Below, piece after piece: positions 1-64,000 of a DNA stretch of 64,000 bases (positions within the stretch are counted from its first letter, which is position 1; the number at the start of each line of letters is the position of its first letter). Below the pieces are notes generated by a model, which was not told the origin of the DNA, searched no databases, and saw nothing but the letters and a program-made list of their open reading frames with translations. The stretch is from Balanoglossus misakiensis (Eukaryota; Animalia; Hemichordata): the NCBI GenBank assembly GCA_040954595.2, contig CM082592.2, forward strand, positions 11,044,017-11,108,016, read 5' to 3'. Made by a program: the position numbers and the translations under genes.

Positions 1-3000
1 AAATTTGGCCGATTTTTGAAAAAATCATGGGTTATAGCTCAGGAAAATCGTCAAAAAATGACAATTTTTCGACTTTGGGGAATTTCAAATTTTGGCCGAT
101 TTTTGAAAAAATCATGGGTTATAGCTCAGGAAAATCGTCAAAAAATGACAATTTTTCGACTTTGGGGAATTTCAAATTTTGGCCGATTTTTGAAAAAATC
201 ATGGGTTATAGCTCAGGAAAATCGTCAAAAAATGACAATTTTTCGACTTTGGGGAATTTCAAAATTTGGCCGATTTTTGAAAAAATCATGGGTTATAGCT
301 CAGGAAAATCGTCAAAAAATGACAATTTTTCGACTTTGGGGAATTTCAAATTTTGGCCGATTTTTGAAAAAATCATGGGTTATAGCTCAGGAAAATCGTC
401 AAAAAATGACAATTTTTCGACTTTGGGGAATTTCAAAATTTGGCCGATTTTTGAAAAAATCATGGGTTATAGCTCAGGAAAATCGTCAAAAAATGACAAT
501 TTTTCGACTTTGGGGAATTTCAAATTTTGGCCGATTTTTGAAAAAATCATGGGTTATAGCTCAGGAAAATCGTCAAAAAATGACAATTTTTCGACTTTGG
601 GGAATTTCAAAATTTGTCCGATTTTTGAAAAAATCATGGGTTATAGCTCAGGAAAATCGTCAAAAAATGACAATTTTTCGACTTTGGGGAATTTCAAAAT
701 TTGTCCGATTTTTGAAAAAATCATGGGTTATAGCTCAGGAAAATCGTCAAAAAATGACAATTTTTCGACTTTGGGGAATTTCAAAATTTGACCGATTTTT
801 GAAAAAATCATGGGTTATAGCTCAGGAAAATCGTCAAAAAATGACAATTTTTCGACTTTGGGGAATTTCAAAATTTGGCCGATTTTTGAAAAAATCATGG
901 GTTATAGCTCAGGAAAATCGTCAAAAAATGACAATTTTTCGACTTTGGGGAATTTCAAAATTTGGCCGATTTTTGAAAAAATCATGGGTTATAGCTCAGG
1001 AAAATCGTCAAAAAATGACAATTTTTCGACTTTGGGGAATTTCAAAATTTGGCCGATTTTTGAAAAAATCATGGGTTATAGCTCAGGAAAATCGTCAAAA
1101 AATGACAATTTTTCGACTTTGGGGAATTTCAAAATTTGGCCGATTTTTGAAAAAATCATGGGTTATAGCTCAGGAAAATCGTCAAAAAATGACAATTTTT
1201 CGACTTTGGGGAATTTCAAAATTTGGCCGATTTTTGAAAAAATCATGGGTTATAGCTCAGGAAAATCGTCAAAAAATGACAATTTTTCGACTTTGGGGAA
1301 TTTCAAAATTTGGCCGATTTTTGAAAAAATCATGGGTTATAGCTCAGGAAAATCGTCAAAAAATGACAATTTTTCGACTTTGGGGAATTTCAAAATTTGG
1401 CCGATTTTTGAAAAAATCATGGGTTATAGCTCAGGAAAATCGTCAAAAAATGACAATTTTTCGACTTTGGGGAATTTCAAAATTTGGCCGATTTTTGAAA
1501 AAATCATGGGTTATAGCTCAGGAAAATCGTCAAAAAATGACAATTTTTCGACTTTGGGGAATTTCAAATTTTGGCCGATTTTTGAAAAAATCATGGGTTA
1601 TAGCTCAGGAAAATCGTCAAAAAATGACAATTTTTCGACTTTGGGGAATTTCAAATTTTGGCCGATTTTTGAAAAAATCATGGGTTATAGCTCAGGAAAA
1701 TCGTCAAAAAATGACAAATTTTCGACTTTGGGGAATTTCAAAATTTGGCCGATTTTTCAAAAAATCGTGGGTTATAGCTCAGGAAAATCGTCAAAAAATG
1801 ACAATTTTTCGACTTTGGGGAATTTCAAAATTTGGCCGATTTTTGAAAAAATCATGGGTTATAGCTCAGGAAAATCGTCAAAAAATAACAATTTTTCGAC
1901 TTTGGGGAATTTCAAAATTTGGCCGATTTTTGAAAAAATCATGGGTTATAGCTCAGGAAAATCGTCAAAAAATGACAATTTTTCGACTTTGGTGAATTTC
2001 AAATTTTGGCCGATTTTTGAAAAAATCATGGGTTATAGCTCAGGAAAATCGTCAAAAAATGACAAATTTTCGACTTTGGGGAATTTCAAAATTTGTCCGA
2101 TTTTTGAAAAAATCATGGGTTATAGCTCAGGAAAATCGTCAAAAAATGACAAATTTTCGACTTTGGGGAATTTCAAAATTTATCCGATTTTTGAAAAAAT
2201 CATGGGTTATAGCTCAGGAAAATCGTCAAAAAATGACAAATTTTCGACTTTGGGGAATTTCAAAATTTGTCCGATTTTTGAAAAAATCATGGGTTATAGC
2301 TCAGGAAAATCGTCAAAAAATGACAAATTTTCGACTTTGGGGAATTTCAAAATTTGTCCGATTTTTGAAAAAATCATGGGTTATAGCTCAGGAAAATCGT
2401 CAAAAAATGACAAATTTTCGACTTTGGGGAATTTCAAAATTTGTCCGATTTTTGAAAAAATCATGGGTTATAGCTCAGGAAAATCGTCAAAAAATGACAA
2501 ATTTTCGACTTTGGGGAATTTCAAAATTTGGCCGATTTTTGAAAAAATCATGGGTTATAGCTCAGGAAAATCGTCAAAAAATGACAAATTTTCGACTTTG
2601 GGGAATTTCAAAATTTGGCCGATTTTTGAAAAAATCATGGGTTATAGCTCAGGAAAATCGTCAAAAAATGACAATTTTTCGACTTTGGGTAATTTCAAAT
2701 TTTGGCCGATTTTTGAAAAAATCATGGGTTATAGCTCAGGAAAATCGTCAAAAAATGAAAATTTTTCGACTTTGGGGAATTTCAAAATTTGGCCGATTTT
2801 TGAAAAAATCATGGGTTATAGCTCAGGAAAATCGTCAAAAAATGACAATTTTTCGACTTTGGGGAATTTCAAAATTTGTCCGATTTTTGAAAAAATCATG
2901 GGTTATAGCTCAGGAAAATCGTCAAAAAATGACAATTTTTCGACTTTGGGGAATTTCAAAATTTGTCCGATTTTTGAAAAAATCATGGGTTATAGCTCAG

Positions 3001-6000
3001 GAAAATCGTCAAAAAATGACAATTTTTCGACTTTGGGGAATTTCAAAATTTGTCCGATTTTTGAAAAAATCATGGGTTATAGCTCAGGAAAATCGTCAAA
3101 AAATGACAATTTTTCGACTTTGGGGAATTTCAAAATTTGTCCGATTTTTGAAAAAATCATGGGTTATAGCTCAGGAAAATCGTCAAAAAATGACAATTTT
3201 TCGACTTTGGGGAATTTTAAAATTTGACCGATTTTTGAAAAAATCATGGGTTATAGCTCAGGAAAATCGTCAAAAAATGACAATTTTTCGACTTTGGGGA
3301 ATTTCAAAATTTGGCCGATTTTTGAAAAAATCATGGGTTATAGCTCAGGAAAATCGTCAAAAAATGACAATTTTTCGACTTTGGGGAATTTCAAAATTTG
3401 GCCGATTTTTGAAAAAATCATGGGTTATAGCTCAGGAAAATCGTCAAAAAATGACAATTTTTCGACTTTGGTGAATTTCAAATTTTGGCCGATTTTTGAA
3501 AAAATCATGGGTTATAGCTCAGGAAAATCGTCAAAAAATGACAATTTTTCGACTTTGGGGAATTTCAAAATTTGTCCGATTTTTGAAAAAATCATGGGTT
3601 ATAGCTCAGGAAAATCGTCAAAAAATGACAATTTTTCGACTTTGGGGAATTTCAAAATTTGGCCGATTTTTCAAAAAATCATGGGTTATAGCTCAGGAAA
3701 ATCGTCAAAAAATGACAATTTTTCGACTTTGGGGAATTTCAAAATTTGTCCGATTTTTGAAAAAATCATGGGTTATAGCTCAGGAAAATCGTCAAAAAAT
3801 GACAATTTTTCGACTATGGGGAATTTCAAAATTTGTCCGATTTTTGAAAAAATCATGGGTTATAGCTCAGGAAAATCGTCAAAAAATGACAATTTTTCGA
3901 CTTTGGGGAATTTCAAAATTTGGCCGATTTTTGAAAAAATCATGGGTTATAGCTCAGGAAAATCGTCAAAAAATGACAATTTTTCGACTTTGGGGAATTT
4001 CAAAATTTGGCCGATTTTTGAAAAAATCATGGGTTATAGCTCAGGAAAATCGTCAAAAAATGACAATTTTTCGACTTTGGGGAATTTCAAAATTTGGCCG
4101 ATATTTGAAAAATTCATGGGTTATAGCTCAGGAAAATCGTCAAAAAATGACAATTTTTCGACTTTGGGGAATTTCAAAATTTGGCCGATTTTTGAAAAAA
4201 TCATGGGTTATAGCTCAGGAAAATCGTCAAAAAATGACAATTTTTCGACTTTGGGGAATTTCAAAATTTGTCCGATTTTTGAAAAAATCATGGGTTATAG
4301 CTCAGGAAAATCGTCAAAAAATGACAATTTTTCGACTATGGGGAATTTCAAAATTTGTCCGATTTTTGAAAAAATCATGGGTTATAGCTCAGGAAAATCG
4401 TCAAAAAATGACAATTTTTCGACTTTGGGGAATTTCAAAATTTGTCCGATTTTTGAAAAAATCATGGGTTATAGCTCAGGAAAATCGTCAAAAAATGACA
4501 ATTTTTCGACTTTGGGGAATTTCAAAATTTGTCCGATTTTTGAAAAAATCATGGGTTATAGCTCAGGAAAATCGTCAAAAAATGACAATTTTTCGACTTT
4601 GGGGAATTTCAAAATTTGTCCGATTTTTGAAAAAATCATGGGTTATAGCTCAGGAAAATCGTCAAAAAATGACAATTTTTCGACTTTGGGGAATTTCAAA
4701 ATTTGTCCGATTTTTGAAAAAATCATGGGTTATAGCTCAGGAAAATCGTCAAAAAATGACAATTTTTCGGCTTTGGGGAATTTTAAAATTTGACCGATTT
4801 TTGAAAAAATCATGGGTTATAGCTCAGGAAAATCGTCAAAAAATGACAATTTTTCGACTTTGGGGAATTTCAAAATTTGGCCGATTTTTGAAAAAATCAT
4901 GGGTTATAGCTCAGGAAAATCGTCAAAAAATGACAATTTTTCGACTTTGGGGAATTTCAAAATTTGTCCGATTTTTGAAAAAATCATGGGTTATAGCTCA
5001 GGAAAATCGTCAAAAAATGACAATTTTTCGACTATGGGGAATTTCAAAATTTGTCCGATTTTTGAAAAAATCATGGGTTATAGCTCAGGAAAATCGTCAA
5101 AAAATGACTATTTTTCGACTTTGGGGAATTTCAAAATTTGGCCGATTTTTGAAAAAATCATGGGTTATAGCTCAGGAAAATCGTCAAAAAATGACTATTT
5201 TTCGACTTTGGGGAATTTCAAAATTTGGCCGATTTTTGAAAAAATCATGGGTTATAGCTCAGGAAAATCGTCAAAAAATGACAATTTTTCGACTTTGGGG
5301 AATTTCAAAATTTGGCCGATATTTGAAAAATTCATGGGTTATAGCTCAGGAAAATCGTCAAAGAATGACAATTTTTCGACTTTGGGGAATTTCAAAATTT
5401 GGCCGATTTTTGAAAAAATCATGGGTTATAGCTCAGGAAAATCGTCAAAAAATGACAATTTTTCGACTTTGGGGAATTTCAAAATTTGTCCGATTTTTGA
5501 AAAAATCATGGGTTATAGCTCAGGAAAATCGTCAAAAAATGACAATTTTTCGACTTTGGGGAATTTCAAAATTTGTCCGATTTTTGAAAAAATCATGGGT
5601 TATAGCTCAGGAAAATCGTCAAAAAATGACAATTTTTCGACTTTGGGGAATTTTAAAATTTGGCCGATTTTTGAAAAAATCATGGGTTATAGCTCAGGAA
5701 AATCGTCAAAAAATGACAATTTTTCGACTTTGGGGAATTTCAAAATTTGGCCGATTTTTGAAAAAATCATGGGTTATAGCTCAGGAAAATCGTCAAAAAA
5801 TGACAATTTTTCGACTTTGGGGAATTTCAAAATTTGGCCGATTTATGAAAAAATCATGGGTTATAGCTCAGGAAAATCGTCAAAAAATGACAATTTTTCG
5901 ACTTTGGGGAATTTCAAAATTTGTCCGATTTTTGAAAAAATCATGGGTTATAGCTCAGGAAAATCGTCAAAAAATGACAATTTTTCGACTATGGGGAATT

Positions 6001-9000
6001 TCAAAATTTGTCCGATTTTTGAAAAAATCATGGGTTATAGCTCAGGAAAATCGTCAAAAAATGACAATTTTTCGACTTTGGGGAATTTCAAAATTTGGCC
6101 GATTTTTGAAAAAATCATGGGTTATAGCTCAGGAAAATCGTCAAAAAATGACAATTTTTCGACTTTGGGGAATTTCAAAATTTGGCCGATTTTTGAAAAA
6201 ATCATGGGTTATAGCTCAGGAAAATCGTCAAAAAATGACAATTTTTCGACTTTGGGGAATTTCAAAATTTGGCCGATATTTGTAAAATTCATGGGTTATA
6301 GCTCAGGAAAATCGTCAAAAAATGACAATTTTTCGACTTTGGGGAATTTCAAAATTTGGCCGATTTTTGAAAAAATCATGGGTTATAGCTCAGGAAAATC
6401 GTCAAAAAATGACAATTTTTCGACTTTGGGGAATTTCAAAATTTGTCCGATTTTTGAAAAAATCATGGGTTATAGCTCAGGAAAATCGTCAAAAAATGAC
6501 AATTTTTCGACTTTGGGGAATTTCAAAATTTGGCCGATTTTTGAAAAAATCATGGGTTATAGCTCAGGAAAATCGTCAGAAAATGACAATTTTTCGACTT
6601 TGGGGAATTTCAAAATTTGTCCGATTTTTGAAAAAATCATGGGTTATAGCTCAGGAAAATCGTCAGAAAATGACAATTTTTCGACTTTGGGGAATTTCAA
6701 AATTTGGCCGATTTTTGAAAAAATCATGGGTTATAGCTCAGGAAAATCGTCAAAAAATGACAATTTTTCGACTTTGGGGAATTTCAAAATTTGGCCGATT
6801 TTTGAAAAAATCATGGGTTATAGCTCAGGAAAATCGTCAAAAAATGACAATTTTTCGACTTTGGGGAATTTCAAAATTTGGCCGATTTTTGAAAAAATCA
6901 TGGGTTATAGCTCAGGAAAATCGTCAAAAAATGACAATTTTTCGACTTTGGGGAATTTCAAAATTTGGCCGATTTTTGAAAAAATCATGGGTTATAGCTC
7001 AGGAAAATCGTCAAAAAATGACAATTTTTCGACTTTGGGGAATTTCAAAATTTGGCCGATTTTTGAAAAAATCATGGGTTATAGCTCAGGAAAATCGTCA
7101 AAAAATGACAATTTTTCGACTTTGGGGAATTTCAAAATTTGGCCGATTTTTGAAAAAATCATGGGTTATAGCTCAGGAAAATCGTCAAAAAATGACAATT
7201 TTTCGATTTTGGGGAATTTCAAAATTTGGCCGATTTTTGAAAAAATCATGGGTTATAGCTCAGGAAAATCGTCAAAAAATGACAATTTTTCGACTTTGGG
7301 GAATTTCAAATTTTGGCCGATTTTTGAAAAAATCATGGGTTATAGCTCAGGAAAATCGTCAAAAAATGACAATTTTTCGACTTTGGGGAATTTCAAAATT
7401 TGGCCGATTTTTGAAAAAATCATGGGTTATAGCTCAGGAAAATCGTCAAAAAATGACAATTTTTCGACTTTGGGGAATTTCAAAATTTGGCCGATTTTTA
7501 AAAAAATCATGGGTTATAGCTCAGGAAAATCGTCAAAAAATGACAATTTTTCGACTTTGGGGAATTTCAAAATTTGGCCGATTTTTGAAAAAATCATGGG
7601 TTATAGCTCAGGAAAATCGTCAAAAAATGACAATTTTTCGACTTTGGGGAATTTCAAAATTTGGCCGATTTTTGAGAAAATCATGGGTTATAGCTCAGGA
7701 AAATCGTCAAAAAATGACAATTTTTCGACTTTGGGGAATTTCAAAATTTGTCCGATTTTTGAAAAAATCATGGGTTATAGCTCAGGAAAATCGTCAAAAA
7801 AATGACAATTTTTCGACTTTGGGGAATTTCAAAATTTGTCCGATTTTTGAAAAAATCATGGGTTATAGCTCAGGAAAATCGTCAAAAAAATGACAATTTT
7901 TCGACTTTGGGGAATTTCAAAATTTGTCCGATTTTTGAAAAAATCATGGGTTATAGCTCAGGAAAATCGTCAAAAAATGACAATTTTTCGACTTTGGGGA
8001 ATTTCAAAATTTGTCCGATTTTTGAAAAAATCATGGGTTATAGCTCAGGAAAATCGTCAAAAAATGACAATTTTTCGACTTTGGGGAATTTCAAAATTTG
8101 TCCGATTTTTGAAAAAATCATGGGTTATAGCTCAGGAAAATCGTCAAAAAAAGACAATTTTTCGACTTTGGGGAATTTCAAAATTTGTCCGATTTTTGAA
8201 AAAATCATGGGTTATAGCTCAGGAAAATCGTCAAAAAATGACAATTTTTCGACTTTGGGGAATTTCAAAATTTGTCCGATTTTTGAAAAAATCATGGGTT
8301 ATAGCTCAGGAAAATCGTCAAAAATTGACAATTTTTCGACTTTGGGGAATTTCAAAATTTGTCCGATTTTTGAAAAAATCATGGGTTATAGCTCAGGAAA
8401 ATCGTCAAAAAATGACAATTTTTCGACTTTGGGGAATTTCAAAATTTGTCCGATTTTTGAAAAAATCATGGGTTATAGCTCAGGAAAATCGTCAAAAAAT
8501 GACAATTTTTCGACTTTGGGGAATTTCAAAATTTGTCCGATTTTTGAAAAAATCATGGGTTATAGCTCAGGAAAATCGTCAAAAAATGACAATTTTTCGA
8601 CTTTGGGGAATTTCAAAATTTGTCCGATTTTTGAAAAAATCATGGGTTATAGCTCAGGAAAATCGTCAAAAAAATGACAATTTTTCGACTTTGGGGAATT
8701 TCAAAATTTGTCCGATTTTTGAAAAAATCATGGGTTATAGCTCAGGAAAATCGTCAAAAAATGACAATTTTTCGACTTTAGGGAATTTCAAAATTTGTCC
8801 GATTTTTGAAAAAATCATGGGTTATAGCTCAGGAAAATCGTCAAAAAATGACAATTTTTCGACTTTGGGGAATTTCAAAATTTGTCCGATTTTTGAAAAA
8901 ATCATGGGTTATAGCTCAGGAAAATCGTCAAAAAATGACAATTTTTCGACTTTGGGGAATTTCAAAATTTGTCCGATTTTTGAAAAAATCATGGGTTATA

Positions 9001-12000
9001 GCTCAGGAAAATCGTCAAAAAATGACAATTTTTCGACTTTGGGGAATTTCAAAATTTGTCCGATTTTTGAAAAAATCATGGGTTATAGCTCAGGAAAATC
9101 GTCAAAAAATGACAATTTTTCGACTTTGGGGAATTTCAAAATTTGGCCGATTTTTGAAAAAATCATGGGTTATAGCTCAGGAAAATCGTCAAAAAATGAC
9201 AATTTTTCGACTTTGGGGAATTTCAAAATTTGGCCGATTTTTGAAAAAATCATGGGTTATAGCTCAGGAAAATCGTCAAAAAATGACAATTTTTCGACTT
9301 TGGGGAATTTCAAAATTTGGCCGATTTTTGAAAAAATCATGGGTTATAGCTCAGGAAAATCGTCAAAAAATGACAATTTTTCGACTTTGGGGAATTTCAA
9401 AATTTGGCCGATTTTTGAAAAAATCATGGGTTATAGCTCAGGAAAATCGTCAAAAAATGACAATTTTTCGACTTTGGGGAATTTCAAAATTTGGCCGATT
9501 TTTGAAAAAATCATGGGTTATAGCTCAGGAAAATCGTCAAAAAATGACAATTTTTCGACTTTGGGGAATTTCAAAATTTGGCCGATTTTTGAAAAATCAT
9601 GGGTTATAGCTCAGGAAAATCGTCAAAAAATGACAATTTTTCGACTTTGGGGAATTTCAAAATTTGGCCGATTTTTGAAAAAATCATGGGTTATAGCTCA
9701 GGAAAATCGTCAAAAAATGACAATTTTTCGACTTTGGGGAATTTCAAAATTTGGCCGATTTTTGAAAAAATCATGGGTTATAGCTCAGGAAAATCGTCAA
9801 AAAATGACAATTTTTCGACTTTGGGGAATTTCAAAATTTGGCCGATTTTTGAAAAAATCATGGGTTATAGCTCAGGAAAATCGTCAAAAAATGACAATTT
9901 TTCGACTTTGGGGAATTTCAAAATTTGTCCGATTTTTGAAAAAATCATGGGTTATAGCTCAGGAAAATCGTCAAAAAATGACAATTTTTCGACTTTGGGG
10001 AATTTCAAAATTTGTCCGATTTTTGAAAAAATCATGGGTTATAGCTCAGGAAAATCGTCAAAAATTGACAATTTTTCGACTTTGGGGAATTTCAAAATTT
10101 GTCCGATTTTTGAAAAAATCATGGGTTATAGCTCAGGAAAATCGTCAAAAAATGACAATTTTTCGACTTTGGGGAATTTCAAAATTTGTCCGATTTTTGA
10201 AAAAATCATGGGTTATAGCTCAGGAAAATCGTCAAAAAATGACAATTTTTCGACTTTGGGGAATTTCAAAATTTGTCCGATTTTTGAAAAAATCATGGGT
10301 TATAGCTCAGGAAAATCGTCAAAAAAATGACAATTTTTCGACTTTGGGGAATTTCAAAATTTGTCCGATTTTTGAAAAAATCATGGGTTATAGCTCAGGA
10401 AAATCGTCAAAAAATGACAATTTTTCGACTTTGGGGAATTTCAAAATTTGGCCGATTTTTGAAAAAATCATGGGTTATAGCTCAGGAAAATCGTCAAAAA
10501 ATGACAATTTTTCGACTTTGGGGAATTTCAAAATTTGGCCGATTTTTGAAAAAATCATGGGTTATAGCTCAGGAAAATCGTCAAAAAATGACAATTTTTC
10601 GACTTTGGGGAATTTCAAAATTTGTCCGATTTTTGAAAAAATCATGGGTTATAGCTCAGGAAAATCGTCAAAAAATGACAATTTTTCGACTTTGGGGAAT
10701 TTCAAAATTTGTCCGATTTTTGAAAAAATCATGGGTTATAGCTCAGAAAAATCGTCAAAAAATGACAATTTTTCGACTTTGGGGAATTTCAAAATTTGTC
10801 CGATTTTTGAAAAAATCATGGGTTATAGCTCAGGAAAATCGTCAAAAAATGACAATTTTTCGACTTTGGGGAATTTCAAAATTTGTCCGATTTTTAAAAA
10901 AATCATGGGTTATAGCTCAGGAAAATCGTCAAAAAATGACAATTTTTCGACTTTGGGGAATTTCAAAATTTGTCCGATTTTTGAAAAAATCATGGGTTAT
11001 AGCTCAGGAAAATCGTCAAAAAATGACAATTTTTCGACTTTGGGGAATTTCAAAATTTGTCCGATTTTTGAAAAAATCATGGGTTATAGCTCAGGAAAAT
11101 CGTCAAAAAATGACAATTTTTCGACTTTGGGGAATTTCAAAATTTGTCCGATTTTTGAAAAAATCATGGGTTATAGCTCAGGAAAATCGTCAAAAAATGA
11201 CAATTTTTCGACTTTGGGGAATTTCAAAATTTGGCCGATTTTTGAAAAAATCATGGGTTATAGCTCAGGAAAATCGTCAAAAAATGACAATTTTTCGACT
11301 TTGGGGAATTTCAAAATTTGGCCGATTTTTGAAAAAATCATGGGTTATAGCTCAGGAAAATCGTCAAAAAATGACAATTTTTCGACTTTGGGGAATTTCA
11401 AAATTTGGCCGATTTTTGAAAAAATCATGGGTTATAGCTCAGGAAAATCGTCAAAAAATGACAATTTTTCGACTTTGGGGAATTTCAAAATTTGGCCGAT
11501 TTTTGAAAAAATCATGGGTTATAGCTCAGGAAAATCGTCAAAAAATGACAATTTTTCGACTTTGGGGAATTTCAAAATTTGGCCGATTTTTGAAAAAATC
11601 ATGGGTTATAGCTCAGGAAAATCGTCAAAAAATGACAATTTTTCGACTTTGGGGAATTTCAAAATTTGGCCGATTTTTGAAAAAATCATGGGTTATAGCT
11701 CAGGAAAATCGTCAAAAAATGACAATTTTTCGACTTTGGGGAATTTCAAAATTTGGCCGATTTTTGAAAAAATCATGGGTTATAGCTCAGGAAAATCGTC
11801 AAAAAATGACAATTTTTCGACTTTGGGGAATTTCAAAATTTGGCCGATTTTTGACAAAATCATGGGTTATAGCTCAGGAAAATCGTCAAAAAATGACAAT
11901 TTTTCGACTTTGGAGAATTTCAAAATTTGGCCGATTTTTGAAAAAATCATGGGTTATAGCTCAGGAAAATCGTCAAAAAATGACAATTTTTCGACTTTGG

Positions 12001-15000: not shown

Positions 15001-18000
15001 GGTTATAGCTCAGGAAAATCGTCAAAAAATGACAATTTTTCGACTTTGGGGAATTTCAAAATTTGTCTAATTTTTGAAAAAATCATGGGTTATAGCTCAG
15101 GAAAATCGTCAAAAAATGACAATTTTTCGACTTTGGGGAATTTCAAAATTTGGCCGATTTTTGAAAAAATCATGGGTTATAGCGCAGGAAAATCGTCAAA
15201 AAATGACAATTTTTCGACTTTGGGGAATTTCAAAATTTGGCCGATTTTTGAAAAAATCATGGGTTATTGTTCAGGAAAATCGTCAAAAAATGACAATTTT
15301 TCGACTTTGGGGAATTTCAAAATTTGGCCGATTTTTGAAAAAATCATGGGTTATAGCTCAGGAAAATCGTCAAAAAATGACAATTTTTCGACTTTGGGGA
15401 ATTTCAAAATTTGGCCGATTTTTGAAAAAATCATGGGTTATAGCTCAGGAAAATCGTCAAAAAATGACAATTTTTCGACTTTGGGGAATTTCAAAATTTG
15501 GCCGATTTTTGAAAAAATCATAGGTTATAGCTCAGGAAAATCGTCAAAAAATGAAAATTTTTCGACTTTGGGGAATTTCAAAATTTGGCCGATTTTTGAA
15601 AAAATCATGGGTTATAGCTCAGGAAAATCGTCAAAAAATGACAATTTTTCGACTTTGGGGAATTTCAAAATTTGTCCGATTTTTGAAAAAATCATGGGTT
15701 ATAGCTCAGGAAAATCGTCAAAAAATGACAATTTTTCGACTTTGGGGAATTTCAAAATTTGTCCGATTTTTGAAAAAATCATGGGTTATAGCTCAGGAAA
15801 ATCGTCAAAAAAAATGACAATTTTTCGACTTTGGGGAATTTCAAAATTTGTCCGATTTTTGAAAAAATCATGGGTTATAGCTCAGGAAAATCGTCAAAAA
15901 ATGACAATTTTTCGACTTTGGGGAATTTCAAAATTTGTCTAATTTTTGAAAAAATCATGGGTTATAGCTCAGGAAAATCGTCAAAAAATGACAATTTTTC
16001 GACTTTGGGGAATTTCAAAATTTGGCCGATTTTTGAAAAAATCATGGGTTATAGCGCAGGAAAATCGTCAAAAAATGACAATTTTTCGACTTTGGGGAAT
16101 TTCAAAATTTGGCCGATTTTTGAAAAAATCATGGGTTATTGTTCAGGAAAATCGTCAAAAAATGACAATTTTTCGACTTTGGGGAATTTCAAAATTTGGC
16201 CGATTTTTGAAAAAATCATGGGTTATAGCTCAGGAAAATCGTCAAAAAATGACAATTTTTCGACTTTGGGGAATTTCAAAATTTGGCCGATTTTTGAAAA
16301 AATCATGGGTTATAGCTCAGGAAAATCGTCAAAAAATGACAATTTTTCGACTTTGGGGAATTTCAAAATTTGGCCGATTTTTGACAAAATCATGGGTTAT
16401 AGCTCAGGAAAATCGTCAAAAAATGACAATTTTTCGACTTTGGGGAATTTCAAAATTTGGCCGATTTTTGAAAAAATCATGGGTTATAGCTCAGGAAAAT
16501 CGTCAAAAATTGACAATTTTTCGACTTTGGGGAATTTCAAAATTTGTCCGATTTTTGAAAAAATCATGGGTTATAGCTCAGGAAAATCGTCAAAAAATGA
16601 CAATTTTTCGACTTTGGGGAATTTCAAAATTTGGCCGATTTTTGAAAAAATCATGGGTTATAGCTCAGGAAAATCGTCAAAAAATGACAATTTTTCGACT
16701 TTGGGGAATTTCAAAATTTGGCCGATTTTTGAAAAAATCATGGGTTATAGCTCAGGAAAATCGTCAAAAAATGACAATTTTTCGACTTTGGGGAATTTCA
16801 AAATTTGTCCGATTTTTGAAAAAATCATGGGTTATAGCTCAGGAAAATCGTCAAAAAATGACAATTTTTCGACTTTGGGGAATTTCAAAATTTGGCCGAT
16901 TTTTGAAAAAATCATGGGTTATAGCTCAGGAAAATCGTCAAAAAATGACAATTTTTCGACTTTGGGGAATTTCAAAATTTGGCCGATTTTTGAAAAAATC
17001 ATGGGTTATAGCTCAGGAAAATCGTCAAAAAATGACAATTTTTCGACTTTGGGGAATTTAGAAATTTGTCCGATTTTTGAAAAAATCATGGGTTATAGCT
17101 CAGGAAAATCGTCAAAAAATGACAATTTTTCGACTTTGGGGAATTTCAAAATGTGTCCGATTTTTGAAAAAATCATGGGTTATAGCTCAGGAAAATCGTC
17201 AAAAAATGACAATTTTTCGACTTTGGGGAATTTCAAAATTTGTCCGATTTTTGAAAAAATCATGGGTTATATCTCAGGAAAATCGTCAAAAAATGACAAT
17301 TTTTCGACTTTGGGGAATTTCAAAATTTGTCCGATTTTTGAAAAAATCATGGGTTATAGCTCAGGAAAATCGTCAAAAAATGACAATTTTTCGACTTTGG
17401 GGAATTTCAAATTTTGGCCGATTTTTGAAAAAATCATGGGTTATAGCTCAGGAAAATCGTCAAAAAATGACAAATTTTCGACTTTGGGGAATTTCAAAAT
17501 TTGTCCGATTTTTGAAAAAATCATGGGTTATAGCTCAGGAAAATCGTCAAAAAATGACAAATTTTCGACTTTGGGGAATTTCAAAATTTGGCCGATTTTT
17601 GAAAAAATCATGGGTTATAGCTCAGGAAAATCGTCAAAAAATGACAATTTTTCGACTTTGGGGAATTTCAAAATTTGGCCGATTTTTGAAAAAATCATGG
17701 GTTATAGCTCAGGAAAATCGTCAAAAATTGACAATTTTTCGACTTTGGGGAATTTCAAAATTTGTCCGATTTTTGAAAAAATCATGGGTTATAGCTCAGG
17801 AAAATCGTCAAAAAATGACAATTTTTCGACTTTGGGGAATTTCAAAATTTGGCCGATTTTTGAAAAAATCATGGGTTATAGCTCAGGAAAATCGTCAAAA
17901 AATGACAATTTTTCGACTTTGGGGAATTTCAAAATTTGGCCGATTTTTGAAAAAATCATGGGTTATAGCTCAGGAAAATCGTCAAAAAATGACAATTTTT

Positions 18001-21000
18001 CGACTTTGGGGAATTTCAAAATTTGTCCGATTTTTGAAAAAATCATGGGTTATAGCTCAGGAAAATCGTCAAAAAATGACAATTTTTCGACTTTGGGGAA
18101 TTTCAAAATTTGGCCGATTTTTGAAAAAATCATGGGTTATAGCTCAGGAAAATCGTCAAAAAATGACAATTTTTCGACTTTGGGGAATTTCAAAATTTGG
18201 CCGATTTTTGAAAAAATCATGGGTTATAGCTCAGGAAAATCGTCAAAAAATGACAATTTTTCGACTTTGGGGAATTTAGAAATTTGTCCGATTTTTGAAA
18301 AAATCATGGGTTATAGCTCAGGAAAATCGTCAAAAAATGACAATTTTTCAACTTTGGGGAATTTCAAAATGTGTCCGATTTTTGAAAAAATCATGGGTTA
18401 TAGCTCAGGAAAATCGTCAAAAAATGACAATTTTTCGACTTTGGGGAATTTCAAAATTTGTCCGATTTTTGAAAAAAATCATGGGTTATATCTCAGGAAA
18501 ATCGTCAAAAAATGACAATTTTTCGACTTTGGGGAATTTCAAAATTTGTCCGATTTTTGAAAAAATCATGGGTTATAGCTCAGGAAAATCGTCAAAAAAT
18601 GACAATTTTTCGACTTTGGGGAATTTCAAATTTTGGCCGATTTTTGAAAAAATCATGGGTTATAGCTCAGGAAAATCGTCAAAAAATGACAAATTTTCGA
18701 CTTTGGGGAATTTCAAAATTTGTCCGATTTTTGAAAAAATCATGGGTTATAGCTCAGGAAAATCGTCAAAAAATGACAAATTTTCGACTTTGGGGAATTT
18801 CAAAATTTGGCCGATTTTTGAAAAAATCATGGGTTATAGCTCAGGAAAATCGTCAAAAAATGACAATTTTTCGACTTTGGGGAATTTCAAAATTTGTCCG
18901 ATTTTTGAAAAAATCATGGGTTATAGCTCAGGAAAATCGTCAAAAAATGACAATTTTTCGACTTTGGGGAATTTCAAAATTTGTCCGATTTTTGAAAAAA
19001 TCATGGGTTATAGCTCAGGAAAATCGTCAAAAAATGACAATTTTTCGACTTTGGGGAATTTCAAAATTTGTCCGATTTTTGAAAAAATCATGGGTTATAG
19101 CTCAGGAAAATCGTCAAAAAATGACAATTTTTCGACTTTGGGGAATTTCAAAATTTGTCCGATTTTTGAAAAAATCATGGGTTATAGCTCAGGAAAATCG
19201 TCAAAAAATGACAATTTTTCGGCTTTGGGGAATTTTAAAATTTGACCGATTTTTGAAAAAATCATGGGTTATAGCTCAGGAAAATCGTCAAAAAATGACA
19301 ATTTTTCGACTTTGGGGAATTTCAAAATTTGGCCGATTTTTGAAAAAATCATGGGTTATAGCTCAGGAAAATCGTCAAAAAATGACAATTTTTCGACTTT
19401 GGGGAATTTCAAAATTTGGCCGATTTATGAAAAAATCATGGGTTATAGCTCAGGAAAATCGTCAAAAAATGACAATTTTTCGACTTTGGGGAATTTCAAA
19501 ATTTGGCCGATTTATGAAAAAATCATGGGTTATAGCTCAGGAAAATCGTCAAAAAATGACAATTTTTCGACTTTGGGGAATTTCAAAATTTGGCCGATAT
19601 TTGAAAAAATCATGGGTTATAGCTCAGGAAAATCGTCAAAAAATGACAATTTTTCGACTTTGGGGAATTTCAAAATTTGGCCGATTTTTGAAAAAATCAT
19701 GGGTTATAGCTCAGGAAAATCGTCAAAAAATGAAAATTTTTCGACTTTGGGGAATTTCAAAATTTGGCCGATTTTTGAAAAAATCATGGGTTATAGCTCA
19801 GGAAAATCGTCAAAAAATGACAATTTTTCGACTTTGGGGAATTTCAAAATTTGTCCGATTTTTGAAAAAATCATGGGTTATAGCTCAGGAAAATCGTCAA
19901 AAAATGACAATTTTTCGACTTTGGGGAATTTCAAAATTTGTCCGATTTTTGAAAAAATCATGGGTTATAGCTCAGGAAAATCGTCAAAAAAAATGACAAT
20001 TTTTCGACTTTGGGGAATTTCAAAATTTGTCCGATTTTTGAAAAAATCATGGGTTATAGCTCAGGAAAATCGTCAAAAAATGACAATTTTTCGACTTTGG
20101 GGAATTTCAAAATTTTTCTAATTTTTGAAAAAATCATGGGTTATAGCTCAGGAAAATCGTCAAAAAATGACAATTTTTCGACTTTGGGGAATTTCAAAAT
20201 TTGGCCGATTTTTGAAAAAATCATGGGTTATAGCGCAGGAAAATCGTCAAAAAATGACAATTTTTCGACTTTGGGGAATTTCAAAATTTGGCCGATTTTT
20301 GAAAAAATCATGGGTTATTGTTCAGGAAAATCGTCAAAAAATGACAATTTTTCGACTTTGGGGAATTTCAAAATTTGGCCGATTTTTGAAAAAATCATGG
20401 GTTATAGCTCAGGAAAATCGTCAAAAAATGACAATTTTTCGACTTTGGGGAATTTCAAAATTTGGCCGATTTTTGAAAAAATCATGGGTTATAGCTCAGG
20501 AAAATCGTCAAAAAATGACAATTTTTCGACTTTGGGGAATTTCAAAATTTGGCCGATTTTTGACAAAATCATGGGTTATAGCTCAGGAAAATCGTCAAAA
20601 AATGACAATTTTTCGACTTTGGGGAATTTCAAAATTTGGCCGATTTTTGAAAAAATCATGGGTTATAGCTCAGGAAAATCGTCAAAAATTGACAATTTTT
20701 CGACTTTGGGGAATTTCAAAATTTGTCCGATTTTTGAAAAAATCATGGGTTATAGCTCAGGAAAATCGTCAAAAAATGACAATTTTTCGACTTTGGGGAA
20801 TTTCAAAATTTGGCCGATTTTTGAAAAAATCATGGGTTATAGCTCAGGAAAATCGTCAAAAAATGACAATTTTTCGACTTTGGGGAATTTCAAAATTTGG
20901 CCGATTTTTGAAAAAATCATGGGTTATAGCTCAGGAAAATCGTCAAAAAATGACAATTTTTCGACTTTGGGGAATTTCAAAATTTGTCCGATTTTTGAAA

Positions 21001-23068
21001 AAATCATGGGTTATAGCTCAGGAAAATCGTCAAAAAATGACAATTTTTCGACTTTGGGGAATTTCAAAATTTGGCCGATTTTTGAAAAAATCATGGGTTA
21101 TAGCTCAGGAAAATCGTCAAAAAATGACAATTTTTCGACTTTGGGGAATTTCAAAATTTGGCCGATTTTTGAAAAAATCATGGGTTATAGCTCAGGAAAA
21201 TCGTCAAAAAATGACAATTTTTCGACTTTGGGGAATTTCAAAATTTGTCCGATTTTTGAAAAAATCATGGGTTATAGCTCAGGAAAATCGTCAAAAAATG
21301 ACAATTTTTCGACTTTGGGGAATTTCAAAATGTGTCCGATTTTTGAAAAAATCATGGGTTATAGCTCAGGAAAATCGTCAAAAAATGACAATTTTTCGAC
21401 TTTGGGGAATTTCAAAATTTGTCCGATTTTTGAAAAAATCATGGGTTATATCTCAGGAAAATCGTCAAAAAATGACAATTTTTCGACTTTGGGGAATTTC
21501 AAAATTTGTCCGATTTTTGAAAAAATCATGGGTTATAGCTCAGGAAAATCGTCAAAAAATGACAATTTTTCGACTTTGGGGAATTTCAAAATTTGGCCGA
21601 TTTTTGAAAAAATCATGGGTTATAGCTCAGGAAAATCGTCAAAAAATGACAATTTTTCGACTTTGGGGAATTTCAAAATTTGGCCGATTTTTGAAAAAAT
21701 CATGGGTTATAGCTCAGGAAAATCGTCAAAAAATGACAATTTTTCGACTTTGGGGAATTTCAAAATTTGGCCGATTTTTGAAAAAATCATGGGTTATAGC
21801 TCAGGAAAATCGTCAAAAAATGACAATTTTTCGACTTTGGGGAATTTCAAAATTTGGCCGATTTTTGAAAAAATCATGGGTTATAGCTCAGGAAAATCGT
21901 CAGAAAATGACAATTTTTCGACTTTGGGGAATTTCAAAATTTGGCCGATTTTTGAAAAAATCATGGGTTATAGCTCAGGAAAATCGTCAGAAAATGACAA
22001 TTTTTCGACTTTGGGGAATTTCAAAATTTGGCCGATTTTTGAAAAAATCATGGGTTATAGCTCAGGAAAATCGTCAAAAAATGACAATTTTTCGACTTTG
22101 GGGAATTTCAAAATGTGTCCGATTTTTGAAAAAATCATGGGTTATAGCTCAGGAAAATCGTCAAAAAATGACAATTTTTCGACTTTGGGGAATTTCAAAA
22201 TTTGTCCGATTTTTGAAAAAATCATGGGTTATATCTCAGGAAAATCGTCAAAAAATGACAATTTTTCGACTTTGGGGAATTTCAAAATTTGTCCGATTTT
22301 TGAAAAAATCATGGGTTATAGCTCAGGAAAATCGTCAAAAAATGACAATTTTTCGACTTTGGGGAATTTCAAAATTTGGCCGATTTTTGAAAAAATCATG
22401 GGTTATAGCTCAGGAAAATCGTCAAAAAATGACAATTTTTCGACTTTGGGGAATTTCAAAATTTGGCCGATTTTTGAAAAAATCATGGGTTATAGCTCAG
22501 GAAAATCGTCAAAAAATGACAATTTTTCGACTTTGGGGAATTTCAAAATTTGGCCGATTTTTGAAAAAATCATGGGTTATAGCTCAGGAAAATCGTCAAA
22601 AAATGACAATTTTTCGACTTTGGGGAATTTCAAAATTTGGCCGATTTTTGAAAAAATCATGGGTTATAGCTCAGGAAAATCGTCAGAAAATGACAATTTT
22701 TCGACTTTGGGGAATTTCAAAATTTGGCCGATTTTTGAAAAAATCATGGGTTATAGCTCAGGAAAATCGTCAGAAAATGACAATTTTTCGACTTTGGGGA
22801 ATTTCAAAATTTGGCCGATTTTTGAAAAAATCATGGGTTATAGCTCAGGAAAATCGTCAAAAATTGACAATTTTTCGACTTTGGGGAATTTCAAAATTTG
22901 GCCGATTTTTGAAAAAATCATGGGTTATAGCTCAGGAAAATCGTCAAAAAATGACAATTTTTCGACTTTGGGGAATTTCAAAATTTGGCCGATTTTTGAA
23001 AAAATCATGGGTTATAGCTCAGGAAAATCGTCAAAAATGACAATTTTTCGACTTTGGGGAATTTCAAA
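1..23068. repeat. 87-bp tandem satellite DNA array, homogeneous core (~265 units, truncated by window start)
   Basis: Consensus AAATTTG(G/T)CCGATTTTTGAAAAAATCATGGGTTATAGCTCAGGAAAATCGTCAAAAAATGACAATTTTTCGACTTTGGGGAATTTCA repeated head-to-tail without spacers; units usually differ by 0-3 bases; 29-aa periodicity in the ORF track confirms the 87-bp period. Confidence 0.99.
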
Positions 23069-23361
23069 ATTTCTTCGATTTTTGATAAAAATCATGGGTT
23101 ATAGCTCGGGAAAATCGTCAGAAAATGACGATTTTTCGACTTTCCGAAATATCAAAATTTCTTCGATTTTCGATAAAAATCATGGGTTATAGCTCATGAA
23201 AATCATCAGAAAATGACGATTTTTCGACTTTCCGAAATTTCAAAATTTCTTCGATTTTTGATAAAAATCATGGGTTAAAGCTCATGAATTGAAAATCATC
23301 AGAAAATGACGATTTTTCGACATTTTTCATGAGTTATAACCCATGAAAAATGTCAAAAAAT
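23069..23361. repeat. Divergent edge units of the satellite (about 3 copies) ending in a ~50-bp palindrome
   Basis: Units share diagnostic changes absent or rare in the core (CTTCGA, GATAAAAA, CAGAAAA, GACGAT, TTCCGAA). Palindrome 23312-23361 is centred on GTTA|TAAC with 23 of 25 pairs matching. Confidence 0.9.
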
Positions 23362-23951
23362 GACAGATTCTTGTCGTTTTGGCATGTTAATATCATAGGC
23401 ATGGATAATAACTCACACGTGCTCAAAAAATAACGAAAACTTGCATTTGTGAATTCTCGCCATTTTCGCATTTTAATGTCATATACATGGATTATACTCA
23501 TACATCCCATAAACTAAAATAGACGATTGTAAAGACGGACATGCGACAGAAACCCATGAAAAGCATAAAAAGATTTCAAGTTTATAGATGAATACAAATA
23601 TGCAGTTCTTGGTTATCAAATTCCATAGCCTTACATGTAGAATGTTGAGAAAACAGTGTTACAATATTTTCATTTCTTGAAATTATCACAAAATGTGCCA
23701 AAAGAGGTCTGGAGTATTATTGTATGATATAAAGCAAACGCTATGTCACCGCGCTTGATTTGTAATAGAGATCTTCAGATATTTTCACCATGGGAAAACT
23801 ATAGCACTGAGCAAGTAGCACGAGAACTCATTGTTTTCTCTCTATGTTTGTTTTTAACATTCATTGATAAACATTAAGAAAATGACAATATTCTAACTTT
23901 TCTTAAGTAGTCATCTATACTTATTGCATTCATTCTGCTTTTAACTAACAG

Positions 23952-25590
23952 ACGTGACAGCTGTGGTTGTGATGGCGCTGTCTTGTGTTCGGGACAAAAC
24001 AGATCTCTTCGTCGACGACATCTTACAAAGGGCTGTGGAAAAGTTGATCTCTACACAACAAGCTGATGGTTCCTTTGGTAACATTAACACCAATGCGTTG
24101 GTAGCACAGGTAGGGAAAATGAAAATCAAACCATAATTGTGATTAATAGAAATTATGAGGACTAGAACGAATTTAAGGTATTTTCTTACAGAATCGCAAA
24201 TTTTGAGTACTGAAAGCAATGTTTCAAGGAAACTGACATATAAAACCCACTGGCAGACAATATGGATTTAACTTGAAATGTTCTACCTCTACATTACACG
24301 TAGGCCCTCAGTGCAGCTGGTGCAGATCCAACGAACTGGCGATGTTCTGACGTCATGCAGCTGATCTTGGCAGAACAAGACACATCCGGGGCGTTTGGTA
24401 GACCAGTTCTGACAACAATGCAAGTTCTGCCCTCTCTGAATGGTGCAAACTTTGGTCAGATAGACAACTCAGCTTGTCCCGTTGAAGAAGGTATTCACTC
24501 CAGCCGATCTTCCGTTGCAGTTCTCCAGGCACACTAAAAAAGAAGTTACATCAGGCTACAATATCCTTGAAAACAAATGACACCAAGAACACAAACAGAA
24601 TCAAAGTTCTTGATGGTTGATCATGTTTTTATGGGCTTTTTTGTAGTGGTGGAACCGACTGATGTTGCCAGTGACGGTCAACTCATCTCGATGTCGCTGA
24701 CTGTGATTAATAATCAAGAATCGGGTCGTCTGGGGTCGTACCAGACCTCGATAGTCAAGGGCACGAACCTCTACAACGCCATGCTGAAGATCGAGGAGGA
24801 AACAAGCTTTGTGTAAATATCGTAGCTATTGAGAGTAGTGTTGGGGTTAAAGGTCAGATGACAGAGCAGCGCCAAGTGACTCTAAATTCTTTTCTTTCCT
24901 TTGTACGTTTGCGGTTGTCATGTGACATGTGTCTCCTTTATCTTCTGTGGATGTCCTGAATTTCATTCCTCGGCCGCACAGCCAACTCTTTCTCCAGCAC
25001 AACCTGCAAAATTTGGGAAAGTAACAATATGTTTGTATTTACTGGGATGAAGAAGACATTTCGACCATTATATTCCGTATATTCGTGGCCGTTTTAACTT
25101 CTGGTCTTGTAGACTTGTAGAAGCCAAAATGCGGTCCAACGAATGCGGTCATCACAAATGATATTTAAACCCTAACTTTCAATTCATATTTTCAGATTTG
25201 AAGCAGCCGAGAGCGCATGGGGTCACTCCATAGAAATGATCTTTGGTGTCTGGGCAGACCCACAGAATGAGATGTTTTGGGCCATCTACAATTACTCGGA
25301 GCCTTTACAAACAGGTATTTACAGTACTTGTCATATGTTCAAAATCTGTATCATTTTGAACTCCCACTACCACCCCGGCCCCCAACCCAGAGTTTAACCA
25401 ATTACAGCAGTGCTGAGCCGAATTGCCAATTGGAATGCCCGTACTACATGGTAGAAGTGGGAATAAAGTAACTATTTCGTGTGTTTCTTTTCTACTTTTC
25501 TCCGATCCGGCAGGTGTGGATGGTTACATTCCGAGAAACGGTGACAATATTTACTTCAGATACACCAGCTACAGCGACTTCCATCATTAG
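23952..25590 (+). CDS. Cobalamin-binding protein, transcobalamin/intrinsic factor-like, paralog 1; 5'-partial (last five exons, ~235 aa)
   Basis: Exons 23952-24109, 24304-24490, 24647-24812, 25196-25314, 25514-25590 join in frame via GT-AG introns (phases 0,1,2,1). Peptides DVTAVVVMALSC, QQADGSFGNINTNALVAQAL, TMQVLPSLNG fit the alpha6-alpha6 barrel; FEAAESAWGHSIEMIFGV..FWAIY..GVDGYIPRNGDNIYFRY fits the beta (DUF4430-type) domain. Confidence 0.88.
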
Positions 25591-25634
25591 ACTTGAAACC
25601 CTATGGAAGACTGCCCTCAGACGGCTGAGCTACC

Positions 25635-25640
25635 AATAAA
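25635..25640 (+). terminator. Candidate polyadenylation signal of paralog 1 (second AATAAA at 25844-25849)
   Basis: AATAAA 45 nt after the stop codon; the distal copy is followed by a GT/T-rich tract near 25880-25906. Confidence 0.45.
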
Positions 25641-30500: not shown

Positions 30501-31259
30501 TGCAGATTTGTGGAATCCGGTACTAGTAGTAGTGGAAAGAGCAAGTCGGCTGCGCGCACATGCGAAAATCTAGGATAAAAGTGACATTTCAGTTGGACGT
30601 TACATAACATAATTAACATTGCATCACAATAATTTGTGAAAGATATGAGACAGACCTAAATCCGTGCATTCAATTTATAAAAGAAAAGAAAAAACGCCCG
30701 AAAAGTCCCAACTATGATTTACATTCCTCTGACGAAAGTGACAGTCTGTTCGTACAGAAAAGAATATCCTTCAGCGACTTCAGAAAGCAAACATTTGTTC
30801 AGCAGTTCTCAGATCACATCACTGAGGTAGCTGGTAAACATTCACAGAAACGAGTTTTCGCGAGATCGGCTAAATGGTTTCATGCTAAAAGCAATTTTAC
30901 GAGACTGAAGCAAAAGGCTTTCATCTGCAGTACAAAAGGAAAGATTAAGGCTCCGAAATTAGTTTTGTTAAACCACACAGAGACCCGTCCATAACATTAG
31001 ACTAGAAGATCACTTAAGTTGAAATTAAATCCTAACAAAAACCTATTTATCATACCTGTAATGGAACATGTTTTTTTCTCCAGCAGTATAAGATCTTGGT
31101 TTATTTACTCCAATGCTTTTTCTTCTCTCTGGGACATTTTCCATTATGGACAATAATAATATTTCATTGTTGTGCGCGTTCAATGCATTTGGTCAAGGTC
31201 GCATATTTCTCGATGTAACTCGTCATATAAACTGCATGTGTTTACTTTACTCTTTCGGG

Positions 31260-31447
31260 TTAAAGGGCCACGAACGTCTTAAGCGCATGTGCCAAATCGG
31301 AGACTCTGGCGACAGAAATTATATACAGTCAAAGCCATAAGGCAGCGTGCAGTACTAACAACAGACAAGATGGCGGCGACCATAGTCTGCGCATGTCATG
31401 TATCCCATGAATCTTTGTTGGTTTCACGGGTCTCACGTGACCTTTGA
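31260..31447. mobile_element. Putative short non-autonomous DNA transposon (MITE-like, TTAA-bounded)
   Basis: Begins TTAAAGGGCCACG and ends CGTGACCTTTGA (imperfect inverted match); its first 50 bp recur at 59014-59063 with 43/50 identity. Confidence 0.4.
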
Positions 31448-63795: not shown

Positions 63796-64000
63796 TTGAC
63801 CAATTTACTCAAAAACATCTCTGTTTTTGAAAACATTGTATTTTAAAGTTATTTTCAATATACATGTAGTGACTGGATAATTTTAAATTAGTTACTCAAA
63901 CAACTCATTAATTACTTGTGAATTTTAGAGGCCATTTTACTGACTTCAACTGTTGTCCATCTGCAGCTGTTTTACACAGGGTTGTCATAAAGAGTACTAG

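What the first reader, a model, noticed from the sequence alone, without database searches (positions are those of the whole stretch)
1..25590. A >23-kb satellite array apparently inside an intron of an intact cobalamin-binding gene
Seen: paralog 1 begins abruptly at an internal phase-1 exon (23952) only ~590 bp after the array ends, and I see no equivalent of the preceding exons in that gap. Its five visible exons have intact frames and splice sites. In paralog 2 the same intron is only 324 bp (53833-54156). Inference: the missing exons lie beyond the left edge, so this intron has grown at least 70-fold by satellite expansion and the satellite would be transcribed as pre-mRNA. Satellite-filled giant introns are established for Drosophila Y fertility genes; here a compact paralog 30 kb away is a built-in control.
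Basis: partly seen in the sequence, partly recalled or inferred. Interest (0 to 1): 0.8.

Follow-up and report, generated by a model that had tools for sequence, protein, structure and literature searches.

The report
Satellite-swollen intron in B12-binder gene
A gene of the vitamin-B12-binding protein family, likely from an acorn worm, is intact and spliced into messenger RNA, and a block of at least 268 copies of an 87-base repeat likely fills one of its introns, a likely tolerated passenger of a kind already known from other animals.

Summary
Bases 1-23321 are about 268 copies of an 87-bp unit, followed by five open, correctly phased exons of a transcobalamin/intrinsic-factor-like gene. Run X3 behaves as RNA. 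It splices all four visible introns, and one contig enters exon 23952 from an upstream exon that is absent from the window. That exon matches the Ptychodera ortholog in exact register (6 of 9 residues; 0 of 76,142 random 9-mers score as well). The gene is therefore transcribed and spliced across this intron. That the array lies inside the intron (at least 23,951 bp) is inferred, because the far side could not be read; satellite transcription was not tested. The RNA carries alleles that the window lacks, so it may come from a shorter-array haplotype. Paralog 2 is an ancient, likely membrane-anchored paralog and a weak size control. The scale is about 100-fold below Drosophila Y-loop introns. 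The scan has noted satellite-filled introns before: 16 findings in at least 4 genomes, one an 87-bp case in this genome. Verdict: real, new member of a known kind.

The parts
1..23321 (.). Homogeneous 87-bp tandem array, about 268 copies in one orientation, running off the left edge
   Evidence: mean 1.2 differences per unit; 54 distinct units among the first 264, 30 of them singletons; longest exact repeat 1,122 bp
23327..23570 (.). Degenerate edge units (72%, 62%, 59% identity), including a near-perfect palindrome at 23312-23361
   Evidence: 0, 0 and 3 of 300 shuffles score as well; nhmmer E 3.6e-7 for 23327-23390; I7
23577..23922 (.). Dispersed repeat of about 345 bp, possibly a decayed MITE, separate from the array
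   Evidence: X1 depth 450-2,800 against 22 on the exons; weak inverted ends 23578-23595 / 23907-23922 (7 of 623 random windows score as well)
23923..23951 (+). 3' end of the large intron: pyrimidine-rich tract, CTAAC branch-point-like motif and AG acceptor
   Evidence: sequence; the acceptor is used by a spliced contig
23952..24109 (+). Paralog 1, first visible exon (phase-1 start); PF01122 positions 184-238
   Evidence: loose end of 255 letters entering it in X3
24304..24490 (+). Paralog 1 exon (187 nt); PF01122 positions 241-299
   Evidence: joints in X3 at depth 327
24647..24812 (+). Paralog 1 exon (166 nt), start of the predicted C-terminal beta domain
25196..25314 (+). Paralog 1 exon (119 nt) with the beta-domain WG motif
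25514..25590 (+). Paralog 1 last coding exon, to the stop; AATAAA at 25635 and 25844
   Evidence: X3 cover extends into the 25790-25912 bin
50709..50957 (+). Likely 5' exon of paralog 2: cytoplasmic tail plus a strongly hydrophobic helix (predicted type II membrane anchor)
   Evidence: 82% identical to P0001 residues 5-87; hydropathy 3.37; its splicing was not seen
53133..55855 (+). Paralog 2, seven exons: 53133-53412, 53537-53832, 54157-54320, 54452-54629, 54746-54926, 55177-55295, 55791-55855
   Evidence: four of its six introns are listed as spliced in X3, including the 324-bp one (which leaves 2 joints unlisted)

Best explanation
Paralog 1 is an intact, spliced gene of the cobalamin-binding family, and the 87-bp array likely lies inside the intron before exon 23952, where it likely grew in place and is likely a tolerated passenger that is transcribed and removed by ordinary splicing. 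Shown: open frame, conserved intron phases, splicing of all four visible introns, and an orthologous upstream exon joined to 23952.
For:: X3 joints skip 194, 156, 383 and 199 nt (GT..AG; depth 327, 327, 565, 659). One X3 contig has 255 loose letters before 23947; their last codons match ortholog P0022 in fixed register at 6 of 9 residues (BLOSUM62 39; 0 of 76,142 random 9-mers score as well) and give the expected phase 1; those 30 letters are not in the window (0 matches with up to 3 mismatches). Depth of that path by subtraction is about 90, against 17 for the intron-to-exon contig (my inference from binned means). Overlapping contigs with 0-1 differences chain 23336-23639 (X2), 23460-23656 and 23627-23980 (X3) and 23834-26055 (X1). 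The edge decays gradually from 100% to 59%, as expected of a natural array end (inference). No sign of faster change: 69.7% identity to the P. flava ortholog over 234 aa, against 64.5% for the same part of paralog 2; end branches 0.22 against 0.19. Block duplication: 18 of 40 units are identical at lag 58, against 16% by chance. The array has 0 AATAAA, 0 ATTAAA and 0 GTRAG on either strand, against 22.7, 17.0 and 25.5 expected from nearby DNA.
Against: The far side of the array was never read, so step 1 is inferred. X3 carries alleles that X1 and the window lack (25582, 25614-25634; 57616-57668), so the RNA probably comes from another haplotype whose array length is unknown. All three runs belong to one study, and X1 may be the source of the assembly. 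X1 depth is about 22 on paralog 1 against about 60 at 44.5-64 kb, which is unexplained. The missing signals are not evidence of selection: 61% of shuffled units lack all three. The single-lag counts of rare units (6-7) only reach the top of the null (mean 3.6, maximum 7 in 1,000 shuffles). Only one array orientation is visible, so a foldback origin is untested.
Confidence: 0.68

Rival explanations
1. The array is in the intron but is a length polymorphism. The spliced RNA comes from a haplotype with a short array, and the long-array allele in the window may be poorly expressed.
For: X3 and X2 share alleles that X1 and the window lack (24887, 25614, 25624, 25629, 25634 and two deletions). The array is very homogeneous (1.2 differences per unit), so it is likely young. 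Intronic VNTRs can be polymorphic and linked to lower expression (PMC11118589, abstract).
Against: The X2 haplotype also carries the degenerate edge unit (contig 23336-23639, one difference, depth 153, close to X2's local single-copy depth). The window's allele has no frame break or splice-site loss.
Confidence: 0.15
2. Assembly mis-join or inflated array. The true intron holds only the decayed edge or a short array, and the long homogeneous block belongs elsewhere, or the 5' exons do not lie beyond it.
For: No read evidence across 23005-23336 or across the array. X1 depth falls from about 60 to about 22 towards the array. Related repeats are abundant in the genome (depth 14,000-35,000 in the 23330-23452 bin).
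Against: The divergence gradient at the edge is smooth. There is no N. The longest exact repeat is 1,122 bp and 30 units are singletons, so accurate long reads could resolve the array (inference).
Confidence: 0.1
3. The array is a selected regulatory device, for example an intron-delay timer or a structured RNA scaffold needing special RNA-binding proteins, as proposed for Drosophila Y-loop genes.
For: Three units fold at -76.4 kcal/mol, z -6.1, with 0 of 200 shuffles as stable. Y-loop genes need Blanks and Heph (PMC6508621, abstract and introduction).
Against: The z-score is inflated because shuffling destroys the repetition of a near-palindromic unit (inference). 24-45 kb is about 100-fold smaller than the 4.3-Mb kl-3 locus. 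The array looks young, and earlier notes report such introns in unrelated enzyme genes (unchecked).
Confidence: 0.05

Closest known systems
Ptychodera flava 'cobalamin binding intrinsic factor-like' XP_070571694-6 (P0022, P0026, P0027); family PF01122, with human intrinsic factor, transcobalamin and haptocorrin
   Same: 69.7% identical over 234 aa and sister in the tree (100/100). P0022 aligns to intrinsic factor 2pmv over residues 126-446 (E 5.5e-23).
   Different: Its gene structure and intron lengths could not be read here. B12 binding is untested for either protein.
Giant intronic VNTRs, e.g. the human CACNA1C intron 3 repeat (PMC11118589; abstract and introduction read)
   Same: A long tandem array in an intron of a working gene, with alleles related by large internal duplications.
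   Different: Here the repeat is 97% of the visible intron, in a gene whose other introns are 156-383 bp; CACNA1C intron 3 is 328 kb. Length polymorphism is untested here.
Drosophila Y-loop fertility genes kl-3 and kl-5 (PMC6508621; abstract and introduction read)
   Same: A satellite-filled intron in a spliced gene.
   Different: Megabase introns of short simple repeats, Y-linked, expressed only in spermatogenesis, with dedicated RNA-binding proteins. Here an 87-bp unit and 24 kb to about 45 kb.
Foldback element Tetris and its TIR-220 satellite, D. virilis (PMC4079207; abstract and Discussion part 1 of 2 read)
   Same: Tandem units of a dispersed element amplify in place into long homogeneous arrays.
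   Different: No second arm, terminal domain or 8-10-bp target duplication can be seen here. At least 268 copies, against up to 66 in the assembled Tetris arrays.

Membership tests
Eukaryotic cobalamin-binding proteins (PF01122) | Alpha-domain similarity to the family profile | tested here: met
   two paralog 1 exons hit PF01122 (E 3.3e-5 and 3.3e-4; 23.5 and 20.2 bits, each alone below the 25-bit cut-off for a whole protein); two paralog 2 exons exceed it (32.9 and 30.5 bits).
Eukaryotic cobalamin-binding proteins (PF01122) | C-terminal beta domain with a bulky Trp/WG motif | tested here: met
   The ortholog's WG aligns with that of intrinsic factor and is kept in paralog 1. Three beta-domain exons gave no Pfam hit on their own.
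Eukaryotic cobalamin-binding proteins (PF01122) | Alpha-domain corrin-contact motif (TNYYQ-like; PMC4350170, passages) and signal peptide | not testable with these tools
   Both would lie in the exons outside the window; the ortholog P0022 has an N-terminal hydrophobic stretch.
Eukaryotic cobalamin-binding proteins (PF01122) | Binds cobalamin | not testable with these tools
   Needs a binding assay.
Satellite / giant intronic tandem array | Long homogeneous head-to-tail array | tested here: met
   267.8 copies, 98% matches.
Satellite / giant intronic tandem array | Lies between two exons that are spliced together | tested here: inconclusive
   Splicing into 23952 from an exon outside the window is shown; that exon's genomic place is not.
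Drosophila-type intron gigantism (Y-loop genes) | Megabase introns of short simple satellites | tested here: not met
   87-bp unit; at least 24 kb, and likely at most about 45 kb from an unchecked note; compare.
Drosophila-type intron gigantism (Y-loop genes) | Satellite transcribed; Y-linked, germline-only; special RNA-binding proteins needed | not testable with these tools
   Contigs give no strand or tissue, and no reads were laid on the array.
Foldback transposon (Tetris-like) | Two opposed arms of tandem repeats, terminal domains and an 8-10-bp target duplication | not testable with these tools
   The left end is outside the window. Within it all units face one way, apart from the unit's own near-palindrome.

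The most novel reading that the evidence does not exclude
It swells them 100-fold without harm because its unit lacks poly(A) and donor signals on both strands and folds on itself. Array length would then be a natural allelic series for measuring what intron length costs in transcription and splicing.
Probability: 0.25. Interest if true: 0.55.

Novelty: new member of a known kind. Interest (0 to 1): 0.32.

Why it matters
It adds a hemichordate case, with splice evidence, to the view that long satellite arrays can sit in introns of ordinary expressed genes, outside Y chromosomes and germline genes. One search found no paper devoted to hemichordate satellite DNA (4 listings, none on this subject by title or abstract start). 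In practice such arrays split gene models and hide 5' exons. If the array varies in length between alleles, the locus would allow a direct test of the cost of intron length. The kind of phenomenon is already in print and has been noted repeatedly in this scan.

Tried and rejected
1. Reading the upstream DNA: no whole genome is held, so the far side of the array stays open.
2. Finding paralog 1's own annotated protein: 0 of 116 candidates passed E 0.01, which is weak evidence.
3. No run is on record as RNA. X3 is read as RNA from its exact GT..AG and CT..AC joints at several genes. X3 has no cover at 23330-23452 or 25913-27000; holes prove nothing and are not used. X3 contig depths differ between the paralogs (327-659 against about 5), but the run was found with paralog 1 and contig depth cannot rank genes.
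4. 'The array sits inside a TTAA-type MITE that ends at 23922': not favoured. That repeat has its own weak left end at 23578, where depth steps up. A resemblance of 23866-23900 to the unit is weak (nhmmer E 7.2).
5. 'The palindrome at 23312-23361 is a foldback centre': not favoured; it matches the unit's own near-palindromic core, and no inverted arm follows.
6. 'The unit was selected to lack processing signals': not supported (61% of shuffles lack them).
7. Testing whether the 87-bp repeat of note e1-10617120 is the same family: two sequence look-ups returned nothing, so it is unverified.
8. Further family paralogs at 25.7-50 kb: none by tblastn with the 49 proteins held.
9. I recall that human TCN2 has an intron at the same position and exons of 187 and 166 nt; two searches found no paper to confirm it, so it remains recall.
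10. dN/dS was not run, because no ortholog DNA was available.
11. PMC3087553 (amphioxus 'mirage' minisatellites; abstract only): duplicated intron-exon boundaries, a different structure.
No supplements were opened for any paper.
Full report
Observation. Tandem Repeats Finder gives one array at 1-23321 with period 87, 267.8 copies and 98% matches. GC is 31-32% with a constant skew, and the window has no N. Units differ from the majority by 1.2 positions on average (268 units). At the right edge identity decays from 99-100% through 95, 86, 87 and 89% to 72, 62 and 59% at about 23570; the last three are matched by 0, 0 and 3 of 300 shuffles. Five exons from 23952 to 25590 have AG/GT sites and one open frame of 234 aa. 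Their phases (1 in, then 0, 1, 2, 1) equal those of the second gene at 53133-55855, to which the peptide is 33% identical. Exons of both genes hit PF01122. No upstream exon lies in the gap.

What the gene is. A search with one paralog 2 exon gave 23 relatives. Look-ups named the closest as acorn-worm proteins, so the organism is likely an acorn worm. Paralog 1 is 69.7% identical over 234 aa to Ptychodera flava XP_070571694-6, a 449-451-aa protein with 214 residues before the position where the window's exon starts. In a 16-row tree cut to the shared region, paralog 1 pairs with that protein (100/100), while paralog 2 groups with Ptychodera, Glandiceps and Saccoglossus proteins (100/98) (redundant isoforms and fragments among the 49 proteins held were left out). 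The duplication is therefore old. Paralog 1 shows no sign of faster change: 69.7% against 64.5% for the same part of paralog 2, and end branches of 0.22 against 0.19. The ortholog aligns to intrinsic factor, haptocorrin and transcobalamin structures (8 sequences, best E 5e-23). B12 binding is inferred from family membership only.

Is it spliced across the gap? Three runs of one study hold the region; none is on record as RNA. X3 behaves as RNA: it skips the four paralog 1 introns exactly (depth 327-659), and also introns of paralog 2 and of two neighbouring genes. One X3 contig has 255 loose letters before 23947. Its last 30 letters are absent from the window. In frame they read QNDDGGFTL, against QHEDGGFTI in the ortholog, at exactly the register that puts the split Asp codon at 23952. 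That is 6 of 9 identical, and 0 of 76,142 random 9-mers from the window score as well. The five letters 23947-23951 fit both the intron end and the exon end. By subtraction from binned depth this path has a depth of about 90, against 17 for the unspliced intron-to-exon contig (a rough inference). An orthologous upstream exon therefore exists and is spliced to 23952. Only one such contig is listed; 155 loose-end rows were not shown.

Is the array inside that intron? This step is inferred. Overlapping contigs with 0-1 differences link 23336-23639 (X2), 23460-23656 and 23627-23980 (X3) and 23834-26055 (X1), so the decayed edge is physically tied to the exon. The smooth decay into the homogeneous array is what a natural array end would look like. 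The longest exact repeat is 1,122 bp and 30 of 264 units are singletons, so accurate long reads could resolve the array. No genome is held, so the far side could not be read. If the missing exons lie this side of them, the intron is between 23,951 bp and about 45 kb. Against this reading: no listed contig joins 23336 to the homogeneous units; X1 depth is about 22 on paralog 1 and about 25-39 at 26-27 kb, against about 60 at 44.5-64 kb; and X3 carries alleles absent from X1 and the window, so the RNA probably comes from another haplotype whose array length is unknown. X3 contigs cover the intron from 23460 at depth 17-20, consistent with pre-mRNA, but contigs give no strand. Satellite transcription was not tested.

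How it likely works. Growth: at lag 58, 18 of 40 units are identical against 16% by chance. Rare units recur at lags 10, 14, 48 and 58 (6-7 pairs each), though each count alone only reaches the top of the null (maximum 7 in 1,000 shuffles). This suggests stepwise duplication of multi-unit blocks, as unequal crossing-over would give (established model; discussed in PMC4079207). Tolerance: the 23,321 bases hold no AATAAA, ATTAAA or GTRAG on either strand, where nearby DNA predicts 23, 17 and 26. That removes the obvious risks of premature cleavage and cryptic donors, but 61% of shuffled units are equally clean, so it need not be selected. Three units fold strongly as RNA (z -6.1), a value inflated by the repetition of a near-palindromic unit. 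Between the decayed edge and the acceptor lies a separate dispersed repeat (23577-23922), so only about 30 bases of the visible intron are not repeat-derived. I could not verify that the unit is the same, and only one orientation is visible here, so this origin is a lead.

Comparison with what is known. Drosophila kl-3 spans at least 4.3 Mb, with megabase introns of short simple repeats, is expressed only in spermatogenesis and needs special RNA-binding proteins (PMC6508621, abstract and introduction). This case fails the size and unit tests. It is closer to giant intronic VNTRs such as that of CACNA1C (PMC11118589, abstract and introduction) and to arrays grown from transposon-borne units such as Tetris TIR-220 (PMC4079207, abstract and Discussion part 1). 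The scan holds 16 findings in at least 4 genomes that match the words for satellite-filled giant introns, 8 of them listed, including octopods, a ray and a shark (unchecked). Paralog 2 is a weak control: it is an ancient paralog with a likely 5' exon coding a cytoplasmic tail and a hydrophobic helix. Paralog 1's own introns (156-383 bp) make the point better.

Verdict. The feature is real, the gene is intact and spliced, and the array is likely intronic (about 0.85 across the best reading and rivals 1 and 3). It is a new member of a known kind. Interest 0.32.

Noticed in passing
window 50709-50957 (+) with 53133-55855: Paralog 2 and its relatives in three acorn worms (P0001, P0002, P0024) have a conserved N-terminal tail of about 55-75 aa, with several Tyr residues, followed by a strongly hydrophobic helix (hydropathy 3.3-3.4, against 1.5-2.0 for the signal-peptide-like starts of other family members). 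This predicts a type II membrane-anchored cobalamin binder, possibly a receptor for B12 uptake. One paper search listed 1 unrelated paper. Splicing of this exon was not seen. It may be more novel than the finding itself.
   Followed up: partly
window 23834-27000: X1 depth is about 22 on paralog 1 and about 25-39 at 26-27 kb, against about 60 at 44.5-64 kb; the second allele is at depth 9-10 at 26.3-26.9 kb. Possibly sequencing drop-out beside the array; unexplained.
   Followed up: no
window 23577-23922: A dispersed repeat 30 bases upstream of the acceptor. Other copies end in a TTAA-flanked terminus (loose ends), which recalls T2/Kolobok-type MITEs (name recalled, not tested).
   Followed up: partly
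window about 58290-60570 (-): Spliced gene with trichohyalin-plectin-homology domain hits (PF13868, E about 2e-5); several CT..AC joints in X3.
   Followed up: partly
window about 63100-64000 (+): Glycolipid transfer protein gene (PF08718, E 2.8e-13), spliced in X3.
   Followed up: partly
window 57869-58241 and 48369-48478: Polymorphic indels: 371 bp replaced by 15 letters in an X1 and an X3 contig, and 108 bp skipped in an X1 contig.
   Followed up: no
window 31259-31309 and 59013-59063: A 51-nt repeat, 86% identical, starting at a TTAA, likely the end of another small element; X1 has a loose end at 59013.
   Followed up: no
window 25582: X3 shows C>A in the last codons of paralog 1 (His to Asn at visible residue 233), 32 letters from a contig end; likely an allele.
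   Followed up: partly
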